64,000 nt of DNA from Clostridia bacterium (GTDB lineage: Bacteria; Bacillota; Clostridia; RGIG6154), in contig JAFQQW010000051.1 in the NCBI GenBank assembly GCA_017410375.1, forward strand, positions 102,733-166,732, written 5' to 3'. Below, piece by piece: positions 10,271 through 10,720 of this stretch. The first letter of the stretch is position 1; every line of letters starts with the position of its first letter. Position numbers and translations under genes: made by a program. A model generated the notes under the pieces. That model saw only the letters and a list, made by a program, of their open reading frames with translations. It did not search any database and was not told the origin of the DNA.

Positions 10271-10430
10271 CATAAATTTGACTGATTAACCATAAATTTC
10301 ACGGTTTCTTAAAAATTTGACGATTACCCTATAAATTTCACGAATACCCCATAAATTTCACGAATACCCCATAAATTTCACGATTACTATAAAAGTTTCA
10401 CGATTACTGTTAAAATTTCACGATTTGAAT
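10271..10430. repeat. Tandem array A: 8 units of exactly 20 bp, core AAATTTCACGATTAC (iteron-like)
   Basis: Units start at 10271, 10291, 10311, 10331, 10351, 10371, 10391 and 10411; two are identical (ataaatttcacgaatacccc). Confidence 0.85.
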
Positions 10431-10440
10431 ATAAAAAAAT

Positions 10441-10481
10441 AACCGCTACCCGGAATTTTACGCTCGGATAGCGGTGTTTTT
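10441..10481. terminator. Bidirectional rho-independent terminator (ccgctacccgga...tcggatagcgg, T-runs on both sides)
   Basis: Imperfect 11-bp stem followed by TGTTTTT on plus and TTATTTTTTT on minus. Confidence 0.6.
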
Positions 10482-10520
10482 GTGTATGAAATTATAATGA
10501 GAAGCCCGAAAAATGCTTAA

Positions 10521-10567
10521 ATAAAGGCAAAAATAAAAGGACAACAATTCTATCAAAACCGTTGTCC
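10521..10567 (-). terminator. Hairpin ggacaac-N15-gttgtcc followed by T-rich run on minus strand; a copy of the tRNA-operon terminator seen at 29553-29599
   Basis: 7-bp stem and 15-nt loop, then TTTTATTTTTGCCTTT on the minus strand. Confidence 0.5.
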
Positions 10568-10599
10568 TTATGTGGGTAAAGACCACAACTTTAATAGAA

Positions 10600-10720
10600 A
10601 GTTTCATATTTAACCCGTATGGTTTCAAATTCAAAAATACGGTTTCATTTTCAGAGGTGCGGTTTCATTTAAGTAATTATGGTTTCATTTTAAAAGGTAC
10701 GGTTTCAAATATCATTATTG
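10600..10720. repeat. Tandem array B: 5-6 units of 20 bp with core ACGGTTTCATTT, unique to copy 1
   Basis: Units start at 10621, 10641, 10661, 10681 and 10701, with a degenerate unit at 10600. Confidence 0.8.

What the first reader, a model, noticed from the sequence alone, without database searches (positions are those of the whole stretch)
10271..10720. Phased 20-bp iteron-like arrays of two related types
Array A has 8 units of exactly 20 bp in copy 1 and about 6 units in copy 2, with core AAATTTCACGATTAC. Array B has 5-6 units of 20 bp with core ACGGTTTCATTT, and is present only next to copy 1. Both share a TTTCA core repeated every 20 bp, about two helical turns. This is typical of iterons or centromere-like (parC/parS) sites, or of arrays bound cooperatively by a regulator. 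These are not CRISPR, because there are no spacers.

Their position between the RHS operon promoter and the glycan block suggests a regulatory, partition or replication role inherited from a mobile element.
Basis: seen in the sequence. Interest (0 to 1): 0.6.

Follow-up and report, generated by a model that had tools for sequence, protein, structure and literature searches.

The report
Repeat arrays beside tRNA integration sites
The two 20-bp repeat arrays are real and look like rows of protein-binding sites; they belong to a recurring non-coding module that sits just after tRNA or tmRNA gene ends where mobile DNA integrates in Clostridia, not to a plasmid origin or centromere, and the protein that binds them is unknown.

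Summary
Array A is at 10254-10432 (about 8-9 units) and again at 29346-29464 (about 6 units). Array B is at 10599-10719 (6 units). All are phased at about 20 bp, far beyond chance.

The claim that A and B are related is not supported. A shared TTTCA is expected in 31% of random unit pairs. The conserved cores differ: (C/G)ACGA(A/T)TAC for A and GGTTTCA for B.

Array A is part of a duplicated block of about 330 bp: array, hairpin T2, hairpin T1, then CCCACA. One copy abuts the 3' end of tRNA-His. The other lies 19 kb away, next to array B and the RHS operon promoter. Everything left of tRNA-His is low-GC and differs between relatives.

The same module recurs in about a dozen metagenomic and provirus contigs. 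It consists of a tRNA or tmRNA 3' end or short fragment, a hairpin carrying TTTGATA(G/C)A, a gap of 115-190 bp, and an ACGATTAC array.

I read the arrays as protein-binding sites in the arms of attachment sites, and the window as two islands stacked at tRNA-His. No integrase, Rep or Par gene is present. The binding protein and the exact role are inferred, not shown.

In passing, I found an agr-like quorum-sensing locus whose LytTR-type repeat promoters include the RHS promoter.

The parts
10254..10432 (+). Array A, copy 1. It has 9 units of about 20 bp with core (C/G)ACGA(A/T)TAC. The three units nearest the RHS promoter are degenerate.
10442..10475 (.). Hairpin T2 (ACCGCTA...TAGCGGT) with T-runs on both strands. 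It is part of the duplicated block.
   Evidence: sequence; alignment
10537..10569 (-). Hairpin T1, terminator-like on the minus strand, with the conserved apical motif TTTGATAGA.
10571..10576 (-). Junction CCCACA. These are the last bases of tRNA-His repeated at the internal junction, and they mark the end of the block shared with copy 2.
10599..10719 (+). Array B. It has 6 units of 20-21 bp with invariant core GGTTTCA and variable spacers.
10718..10878 (+). Promoter-like site TTGTCA-17-TAAAAT (10718-10746), which starts 9-10 nt after the last array B unit. A terminator hairpin follows at 10842-10868. Together they form a candidate small RNA unit of about 125 nt.
   Evidence: fold z-score -2.95; inference
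10177..10244 (-). Promoter of the 1144-aa/RHS operon. It has two 9-bp direct repeats, ACGAATATG and ACGAATAAG, 12 bp apart, then 9 bp, then TTGATT-17-TATTCT. This is LytTR-type architecture. It begins 16 bp from array A, on the other strand.
10577..29602 (.). The 19-kb accessory block lying between the two copies of the module. It encodes a 766-aa protein, a creatininase, a 1798-aa surface protein, a GFO oxidoreductase, an AraC regulator, a BNR protein, a 1666-aa protein and a broken AraC gene. There is no integrase.
29346..29464 (+). Array A, copy 2, with 6 units. It runs into the 3' end of a truncated AraC reading frame.
29474..29601 (.). Copy 2 of hairpins T2 (29474-29507) and T1 (29569-29601). 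T1 ends 3 nt from tRNA-His.
29605..29929 (-). tRNA-Gly, tRNA-Arg and tRNA-His operon with a consensus promoter at 29929-29901. The tRNA-His 3' end is the integration hot spot.
8..35 (-). A second promoter of the ACGAATA direct-repeat type, upstream of a 69-aa gene that lies just outside the left edge of the window.

Best explanation
Arrays A and B are rows of binding sites for sequence-specific DNA-binding proteins. They lie in the arms of attachment (att) sites left by integrative elements that target the 3' end of tRNA-His.

The conserved module reads, in tRNA direction: tRNA end, hairpin T1 (a terminator carrying TTTGATAGA), hairpin T2, then an array of (C/G)ACGATTAC units that starts about 140 bp from the tRNA end. 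It is the tRNA-proximal (P'-type) arm of a family of Clostridial islands and prophages.

The window holds two such islands stacked in tandem:
- Copy 2 (29346-29608) is the arm of the 19-kb glycan block, next to the intact tRNA.
- The junction at 10571-10576 keeps only CCCACA of the tRNA.
- On one side of that junction is array B, the distal (P-type) arm of the 19-kb block.
- On the other side is copy 1, the proximal arm of the older RHS/agr island.

Mechanism (inferred): each unit binds one protomer. The filled array forms a phased nucleoprotein filament that helps assemble or direct the recombination complex, in the manner of integrase arm-type sites or sites for a recombination directionality factor (RDF).

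No integrase remains nearby. The blocks are therefore now non-autonomous, like cis-mobilizable elements (CIME: islands bounded by att sites but lacking their own recombinase).

What is shown: the arrays, the core conservation, the module and its link to tRNA ends and fragments, the tandem layout, and the island-like composition. What is inferred: which protein binds, and that binding serves recombination.
For: 1. Copy 2 ends exactly at the tRNA-His 3' end. The 207-bp block 10370-10576 is 90% identical to 29402-29608 and stops at TGTGGG.

2. The flank of tRNA-His differs in every relative examined:
- no array in L074 and L077;
- 2-3 units with different cargo in L044;
- an unrelated AGCTAAATT array in L081;
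- small inserts flanked by repeats of the tRNA end in L044 and L077.

3. GC content is 35-41% left of the tRNA and 42-48% right of it.

4. Homologous modules follow other RNA genes: tRNA-Leu (L051), tRNA-Asn at a provirus end (L059), tRNA-Gly (L109), a further tRNA (L104) and a tmRNA 3' fragment (L052). They also follow short tRNA-end fragments that ARAGORN and Rfam do not call (L144, L150, L063, L062).

5. The hairpin motif TTTGATA(G/C)A co-occurs with ACGATTAC arrays at a near-constant gap of 115-190 bp. It is found in 12 of 73 arrays, 8 of them with the exact 9-mer TTTGATACA. In control arrays there are 4 loose hits in 41.

6. The core is conserved while the spacers diverge completely between organisms, and within arrays.

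7. L062 repeats the layout 'array, hairpin, tRNA-end remnant, different array' seen at window copy 1.

8. The genes next to the arrays are typical island cargo: RHS here, type I RM, Eco57I and dcm methylases, WYL/HNH and ANT elsewhere.

9. Tandem accretion and integrase-less CIMEs at tRNA sites are documented (PMC5704250). Arm-type sites and RDFs that oligomerise head-to-tail in attP are documented (PMC11963761).
Against: - No integrase, excisionase or remnant of one lies in the window or 8.8 kb to its left. I could not reach the far end of the older island.
- Known arm-type sites are about 10-11 bp, number 2-7, and sit inside an attP of about 250-400 bp. For example, there are five in the 283-bp attP of ICEMlSymR7A. 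The genuine integrative mobilizable element (IME) in L051 has pairs of repeats with 10-11 bp period next to its integrase. Arrays of 3-11 units of about 20 bp, with copy number varying between close strains, do not fit a fixed intasome geometry.
- Unit orientation relative to the tRNA is opposite in two subfamilies.
- The duplicated block is 300 bp at 90% identity, not a short exact core. Homologous recombination between modules could give the same layout.
- The module family was found by searching for its own core. A composition-matched control 7-mer also gives many arrays in viral contigs (41 loci against 72).
Confidence: 0.4

Rival explanations
1. The arrays are transcription-factor arrays. 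They would be upstream activating sites for tandem-binding activators of the LytTR (AgrA-like) type. Array B would drive a small RNA. Array A would serve as extra or reservoir sites for the agr-like response regulator that controls the adjacent RHS promoter.
For: - A 9-bp core plus 11-bp spacer matches the LytTR rule of a 9-bp repeat, an 11-13 bp spacer, and about 10 bp to the -35 (PMC6193735 and PMC5600425).
- The last array B unit lies 9-10 nt upstream of TTGTCA-17-TAAAAT, and a terminator lies 95 nt downstream.
- An agr-like locus lies about 10 kb to the left.
- Three promoters carry ACGAATA repeats 21 bp apart: agrB, a 69-aa gene, and the 1144-aa/RHS operon. A homologous agr locus, L086, has GACGAA repeats in the same position.
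- Array A units contain ACGA(A/T)TA and start 16 bp from the RHS promoter repeats.
- In the second module subfamily, arrays point into downstream genes (L063, L144, L150).
Against: - A weight matrix built from the six promoter half-sites does not place any array A unit among the top 40 hits in 73 kb.
- Array A is on the opposite strand to the promoter repeats, and no promoter follows it.
- Copy 2, L044, L051, L059 and L104 lie between a tRNA terminator and a convergent gene, with nothing to activate.
- Homologous agr loci have no arrays.
- No LytTR gene was found in the other module-bearing loci.
- LytTR promoters normally have two repeats, not 6-11.
Confidence: 0.2
2. The arrays are iterons or a centromere of the excised element. 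They would be bound by a replication initiator or a partition adaptor encoded elsewhere. Arrays B and A would flank the AT-rich hairpin region, as two iteron sets flank an origin, and would be brought together only in the excised circle.
For: - Tandem 19-22 bp repeats in 4-11 copies are the textbook anatomy of iteron origins and of some centromeres (my own knowledge of the R6K, P1, F and RK2 origins and of pSK41 parC).
- Arrays B and A flank about 175 bp of AT-rich DNA containing two hairpins.
- The plasmid-like contigs L065 and L100 encode Rep_3, ParA and a primase-helicase. They carry four perfect 22-bp units with the same CACGATTAC core next to the primase-helicase operon.
Against: - No Rep, primase, ParA/ParM or ParB/ParR gene lies in 73 kb.
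- There is no DnaA-box cluster.
- There is no match to 72,556 plasmids or 50,697 phages.
- L065 and L100 lack the hairpin motif and may share the core by chance.
- The tight link to tRNA ends is not explained by this reading.
Confidence: 0.15
3. The arrays are neutral minisatellites. They would have arisen by slippage in a recombination-prone intergenic region and would hitch-hike with the duplicated block, with no function.
For: - Copy number differs between close strains and between copies (about 3, 6 and 8-9 units).
- Neighbouring units are identical, for example 10333 and 10353, which shows recent duplication.
- 20-bp tandem arrays are common in viral contigs for an arbitrary 7-mer.
Against: - The same 9-bp core is kept in homologous modules of unrelated genomes while the spacers and even their GC content change completely.
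- In array B, substitutions avoid a 7-bp core (P about 3e-4).
- The distance from hairpin to array is conserved.
Confidence: 0.1

Closest known systems
Arm regions of attP/attL/attR of tyrosine-integrase elements (lambda-type arm sites; Xis/RDF filaments)
   Same: - Repeated asymmetric sites lie beside a core at a tRNA 3' end.
- Different sites sit on the two arms.
- They would be bound cooperatively.
- They are carried by the element and are therefore repeated in tandem integrations.
   Different: - Units are about 20 bp apart rather than about 10-11 bp.
- There are 3-11 copies, and the number varies.
- The array starts about 140 bp from the core and can reach about 350 bp.
- No integrase or RDF gene is nearby.
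- Binding has not been tested.
Cis-mobilizable elements (CIMEs) and tandem accretion of ICEs/IMEs at tRNA genes (reviewed in PMC5704250)
   Same: - An accessory block without recombination genes is bounded by att-like direct repeats.
- It lies in tandem with another island at a tRNA 3' end.
   Different: - The flanking repeats here are about 300 bp at 90% identity and include whole arms, not a short exact core.
- Mobilisation has not been shown.
Iteron-type plasmid origins (Rep_3/RepA class) and repeat centromeres (e.g. pSK41 parC)
   Same: Phased direct repeats of 19-22 bp in several copies, with two arrays around an AT-rich stretch.
   Different: There is no initiator or partition gene, no DnaA boxes and no plasmid homology, and the setting is chromosomal and next to a tRNA.
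LytTR (AgrA/ComE/VirR-type) direct-repeat promoters
   Same: - A 9-bp core with a spacer of about 11-12 bp.
- Array B has the right distance to a -35 element.
- Genuine promoters of this type lie 16 bp from array A and elsewhere in the island.
   Different: - There are six to nine repeats instead of two.
- Array A has no promoter and the wrong strand.
- Its units do not score with the local repeat matrix.

Membership tests
Iteron-containing replication origin | Three or more tandem direct repeats of about 17-22 bp | tested here: met
   Period 20 with 8.3, 5.3 and about 6 copies.
Iteron-containing replication origin | A cognate Rep initiator gene next to the iterons | tested here: not met
   Pfam scans of all large ORFs around the arrays, and the gene lists of L047 and L082, show no Rep, primase or helicase.
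Iteron-containing replication origin | DnaA box(es) and an AT-rich unwinding element beside the iterons | tested here: not met
   TTATCCACA with up to 1 mismatch hits 20 times against 19.2 expected. Only one degenerate hit lies in the region. AT-rich DNA is present but is not specific to this locus.
Iteron-containing replication origin | Similarity to a known plasmid or phage origin | tested here: not met
   There is no blastn match in PLSDB or INPHARED.
Partition centromere (parC/parS-type repeat arrays) | Adjacent parA/parM and centromere-binding protein genes | tested here: not met
   None is found in the window or 8.8 kb to its left.
att-site arm of a tRNA-integrating element | The site lies directly beside a tRNA/tmRNA 3' end, or beside a displaced 3' fragment of one | tested here: met
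   Copy 2 abuts tRNA-His and copy 1 keeps CCCACA. Homologous modules follow tRNA-Leu, -Asn and -Gly, a further tRNA, a tmRNA fragment and short uncalled fragments.
att-site arm of a tRNA-integrating element | The flanked DNA is island-like: atypical composition and variable between relatives | tested here: met
   GC is 35-41% on one side and 42-48% on the other. Five relatives have five different tRNA-His flanks.
att-site arm of a tRNA-integrating element | An integrase (and RDF) is encoded by the element | tested here: not met
   Pfam finds no integrase domain, and tblastn with three integrases finds nothing in the window or L082. The far end of the older island could not be reached.
att-site arm of a tRNA-integrating element | The repeats are bound by integrase or RDF and are needed for recombination | not testable with these tools
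   This needs EMSA or footprinting and integration/excision assays.
LytTR-type activator site | 9-bp direct repeats separated by 11-13 bp | tested here: met
   The 20-bp period with cores of 7-9 bp fits. The rule is taken from PMC6193735 and PMC5600425.
LytTR-type activator site | The proximal repeat lies about 10 bp upstream of a -35 element | tested here: inconclusive
   Array B meets this: TTGTCA at 10718 is 9-10 nt after the last unit. Array A does not in either copy.
LytTR-type activator site | The units match the site of a cognate LytTR regulator | tested here: not met
   The local regulator's repeats are ACGAATAnG at three promoters. Their weight matrix does not rank array A units in the top 40, and array B is unrelated.
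CRISPR array | Repeats of 23 bp or more separated by unique spacers of similar length | tested here: not met
   Whole units are 20 bp, with a core of 7-12 bp and a spacer of 8-13 bp.

The most novel reading that the evidence does not exclude
The module may be an undescribed and widespread att-arm architecture of Clostridial integrative elements. It reads: tRNA/tmRNA end, TTTGATA(G/C)A hairpin, about 140 bp, then a long phased array.

In this reading the copy-number-variable arrays, with cores specific to each element family (ACGATTAC, GGTTTCA, GGGGTGCAT, AGCTAAATT), recruit a dedicated protein that is not the integrase. One possibility is that an iteron-like origin or centromere is split by integration, so that arrays B and A are brought together only in the excised circle. 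Another is that the arrays act as a reusable landing pad that drives tandem stacking of cargo islands, including ones that have lost their integrase.
Probability: 0.15. Interest if true: 0.7.

Novelty: new variant of a known kind. Interest (0 to 1): 0.45.

Why it matters
- The module is a simple sequence signature (tRNA end, hairpin motif, phased array). If it proves general, it could mark the boundaries of islands and prophages in poorly studied gut Clostridia. It could also explain how cargo blocks such as RHS toxins, restriction systems and glycan loci stack at tRNA genes without their own integrase.
- Identifying the protein that reads the 9-bp cores would show whether long phased arrays are a new kind of recombination arm, a split origin, or a regulatory device.
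- Separately, the locus offers a clear, testable case of an RHS toxin operon wired to an agr-like quorum-sensing circuit.

Tried and rejected
1. A three-unit scan of 185,579 species genomes returned 41 loci.
2. blastn against plasmids and phages gave no match.
3. Rfam at gathering and permissive thresholds found only the tRNAs, and nothing for the arrays, the hairpins or the 190-bp insert.
4. A literature search for the core 9-mer returned only primer sequences.
5. I considered a parS/Noc half-site, Spo0A box, cre, CodY, Rex, IHF, DnaA box, ECF -35 element, the pC194-type nick site CTTGATA, type III toxI repeats and Tn7-like end repeats by eye. None matches the part of the unit that is conserved across organisms, or the required partner genes are absent. 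These are recollections, not tests, except for the DnaA box.
6. Linking array A to the agr-type repeats by weight matrix failed: array units are not top hits.
7. Homologous agr loci carry no arrays.
8. An all-against-all protein comparison of module-bearing loci found no shared DNA-binding protein apart from generic Xre HTH proteins.
9. A search for integrase remnants found none.
10. An attempt to walk further left through the 1454-aa protein failed and used the last protein search.
11. A control scan showed that arrays containing an arbitrary 7-mer are common in viral contigs. I therefore rely only on the subset that also carries the hairpin motif.

Full report
**What is there**

Tandem Repeats Finder reports three arrays with a 20-bp period:
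- 10261-10425, 8.3 copies;
- 10601-10710, 5.3 copies;
- 29342-29457.

A two-unit pattern of the array A core hits eight times, all inside the two A arrays, against 0.04 expected.

Read in register, the arrays look like this:
- Copy 1 has nine units from 10254 to 10432. The six distal units are regular, the three nearest the RHS promoter are degenerate, and one unit is 19 bp.
- Copy 2 has six units, 29346-29464.
- Array B has six units, 10599-10719.

In array B the seven bases GGTTTCA carry 1 mismatch in 42 cells, while the other 13 positions carry 32 in 78 (P about 3e-4). Array A shows the same tendency more weakly (P about 0.003-0.016). A conserved core with free spacers points to protein-binding sites rather than a decaying satellite.

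Random units of this composition share a 5-mer 31% of the time, and the best A-B identity is 10/20 (P = 0.32).

**The immediate setting**

Array A is the distal part of a larger duplicated block. The segment 10370-10576 is 90% identical to 29402-29608 (alignment). After the array, the block contains:
- hairpin T2, with T-runs on both strands;
- hairpin T1, a minus-strand terminator;
- the bases TATGTGGG.

In copy 2 these last bases are the 3' end of tRNA-His (29605-29681, minus strand). This is the last gene of a Gly-Arg-His operon with a perfect promoter. In copy 1 only CCCACA of the tRNA remains. Array B follows 23 bp later.

Between the copies lie 19 kb of accessory genes. They comprise large secreted proteins, a creatininase, an oxidoreductase, two AraC regulators (one broken) and a BNR protein. 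There is no integrase, Rep or Par gene.

Beyond copy 1 come the promoter and genes of a 1144-aa protein and an RHS toxin. Everything left of tRNA-His has 35-41% GC. The housekeeping genes to the right (clpX, clpP, trigger factor and others) have 42-48%.

**Comparison with relatives**

I anchored on the conserved MBL-fold gene next to the tRNA operon and fetched the same locus from relatives. The tRNA operon is conserved. What follows tRNA-His differs every time:
- L042 is the same strain, and its locus is identical.
- L044 is another assembly carrying the identical MBL protein. It has a 190-bp structured insert, then CCCACA, T1, T2 and only 2-3 array units, followed by a different gene.
- L074 (92% identity) has another terminator, part of the insert and an AraC gene, with no array.
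- L077 (74% identity) has the insert flanked by an 18-bp repeat of the tRNA end, with no array.
- L081 (95% identity) has another hairpin and then an unrelated array: AGCTAAATT three times direct at 19-20 bp, then three times inverted.

The tRNA-His 3' end is therefore an insertion hot spot, and the array module is accessory DNA.

**The module elsewhere**

The single metagenome scan gave one hit, L051. It has about 11 units with core CACGATTAC at 20-21 bp, then hairpins, then the 3' end of tRNA-Leu. The polarity is the same as in the window. The hairpin next to the tRNA has a different stem but the same apical sequence, TTTTGATAGAAT.

Scans of viral contigs gave many arrays. A control with a composition-matched 7-mer gave 41 loci against 72, so array presence alone means little.

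A subset does stand out because it also carries the hairpin motif TTTGATA(G/C)A at 115-190 bp from the array. This is 12 of 73 arrays, eight with the exact 9-mer TTTGATACA. The control set has 4 loose hits in 41.

In that subset the hairpin directly follows one of these:
- a tRNA 3' end: tRNA-Asn at a provirus end in L059, tRNA-Gly in L109, and a tRNA cut by the contig start in L104;
- a tmRNA 3' fragment in L052;
- short tRNA-end fragments that neither ARAGORN nor Rfam calls (L144 twice, L150, L063, L062).

Displaced 3' fragments of tRNA or tmRNA genes are the classic scars of site-specific integration.

L062 reproduces the layout of window copy 1. It has an ACGATTAC array, a hairpin, a GCCA remnant, and then a second array of another type (GGGGTGCAT). 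L051 has a further remnant of this kind, with TTTTGATAGAATT followed by a GCACCCC array.

The genes next to the arrays are typical island cargo:
- type I restriction-modification in L144 and L150;
- Eco57I-type and C5 methylases in L109 and L104;
- WYL and HNH proteins in L059;
- a nucleotidyltransferase and a MatE transporter in L051;
- serine recombinases in L063, L089 and L118.

Two subfamilies exist, with opposite unit orientation relative to the tRNA.

**Interpretation**

The simplest reading is that the module (tRNA end, T1, T2, array) is the tRNA-proximal arm of a family of integrative elements. T1 restores a terminator for the tRNA operon, and the array lies in the arm.

The window would then hold two stacked islands:
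- Copy 2 is the proximal arm of the 19-kb block.
- Array B is the distal arm of that block.
- CCCACA is the junction.
- Copy 1 is the proximal arm of the older RHS/agr island.

Tandem accretion and integrase-less cis-mobilizable elements at tRNA genes are documented (PMC5704250). Repeated arm-type integrase sites and excision factors that oligomerise head-to-tail in attP are also documented (PMC11963761).

I therefore propose that each unit binds one protomer. The filled array would help build or direct the recombination complex.

This last step is inference, and several facts do not fit:
- No integrase or remnant lies within 73 kb.
- Known arm sites are about 10-11 bp in 2-7 copies. The genuine integrative mobilizable element in L051 shows exactly that next to its integrase.
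- Copy number here varies from 3 to 11.
- Unit orientation flips between subfamilies.
- The 300-bp, 90%-identical repeats could also arise from homologous recombination. L044 is a mosaic of the two window copies.

**Rivals**

*Regulatory reading.* This has some real support for array B. Its last unit is 9-10 nt upstream of TTGTCA-17-TAAAAT, and a terminator follows 95 nt later. That is the geometry of LytTR-type promoters.

Left of the window lies an agr-like locus with a LytTR response regulator, a kinase, AgrB and a 49-aa peptide precursor. Three promoters share the layout ACGAATAnG, 12 bp, ACGAATAnG, 9 bp, then the -35 element. They are the agrB promoter, the promoter of a 69-aa gene, and the 1144-aa/RHS operon promoter at 10244-10177. 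A homologous agr locus keeps GACGAA repeats in the same place.

Array A contains ACGA(A/T)TA and starts 16 bp from these repeats. Against a regulatory role for array A:
- It is on the other strand.
- Its units do not score with the promoter matrix.
- No promoter follows it.
- Copy 2 and most homologues sit between a terminator and a convergent gene.
- Other agr loci have no arrays.

It fits the anatomy but fails on partner genes, DnaA boxes and homology. The plasmid-like contigs L065 and L100 carry four 22-bp units with the same core near a primase-helicase operon. They lack the hairpin motif, so the resemblance may be coincidence.

*Neutral minisatellite.* This is unlikely, because the 9-bp core survives in homologous modules whose spacers and base composition have changed completely.

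**Verdict**

It is wrong in family assignment and in relating the two arrays to each other.

The arrays are best filed as an unusual, long, copy-variable form of att-arm repeats within a recurring tRNA/tmRNA-linked module. The binding protein and the function remain open.

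Noticed in passing
L082 19312-23136 (window coordinates about -2640 to -6460); window 10177-10244 and 8-35: An agr-like quorum-sensing locus (Xre HTH proteins, a LytTR response regulator, a kinase, AgrB and a 49-aa AgrD-like peptide) lies left of the window. Three promoters share ACGAATAnG-12 bp-ACGAATAnG-9 bp-(-35): agrB, a 69-aa zinc-ribbon gene, and the 1144-aa/RHS toxin operon. The RHS operon therefore appears to be under quorum-sensing control. A related locus, L084, also pairs RHS with agr.
   Followed up: partly
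window 10718-10878 (+): This is a candidate small RNA of about 125 nt. It has a promoter-like site right after array B, a C-rich 5' stretch (CCGCCCCCAC) and a strong terminator. The fold z-score is -2.95. There is no Rfam match and no conservation data.
   Followed up: partly
L044 4228-4419; L077 about 7005-7160; L074 about 7030-7110: A structured insert of about 190 bp lies just after the tRNA-His terminator in relatives. It has GGGAG...CTCCC ends, is flanked by repeats of the tRNA end (18 bp in L077), and contains an inverted, degenerate copy of the tRNA-His 3' half. There is no Rfam match.
   Followed up: partly
L081 about 6064-6250: At the same position after tRNA-His, a 95%-related strain carries an unrelated array. 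AGCTAAATT occurs three times direct at 19-20 bp and three times inverted, just upstream of a gene start. The layout 'tRNA, hairpin, array' thus recurs with different cores.
   Followed up: no
window 10537-10569 and 29569-29601; L051, L059, L062, L104 and others: The hairpin next to the tRNA end keeps the sequence TTTGATA(G/C)A while its stem changes. The motif is apical in one subfamily and part of the stem in the other. Nothing I tested explains why this sequence is conserved.
   Followed up: partly
window 28478-29387 (+): An AraC-family gene is split across two frames (28478-28741 and 28896-29387). Its reading frame runs on into array A copy 2, so the module seems to have replaced its natural 3' end.
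   Followed up: no
L051 7530-8833 and 10484-11260: A separate integrative mobilizable element lies in the next tRNA. It has a tRNA 3' fragment, pairs of repeats with 10-11 bp period (TTTGCCTTAT x2, GTGGTCAAA x2), a tyrosine integrase and a Mob_Pre relaxase. It is a useful contrast for what ordinary arm repeats look like.
   Followed up: partly
window 94-450 and 2923-3280: A 355-bp segment is repeated at 93% identity. One copy lies inside the RHS gene. The other lies in the downstream orphan RHS fragment (178 aa), as in RHS tip/immunity cassette arrays.
   Followed up: no
window 32618-32920 and 62759-62832: There are coding tandem repeats. A 75/57-bp period falls in the lysine-rich tail of the 535-aa trigger-factor-like gene. 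A perfect 18-bp x3.7 repeat falls in the 1010-aa ORF at 60766-63798.
   Followed up: no
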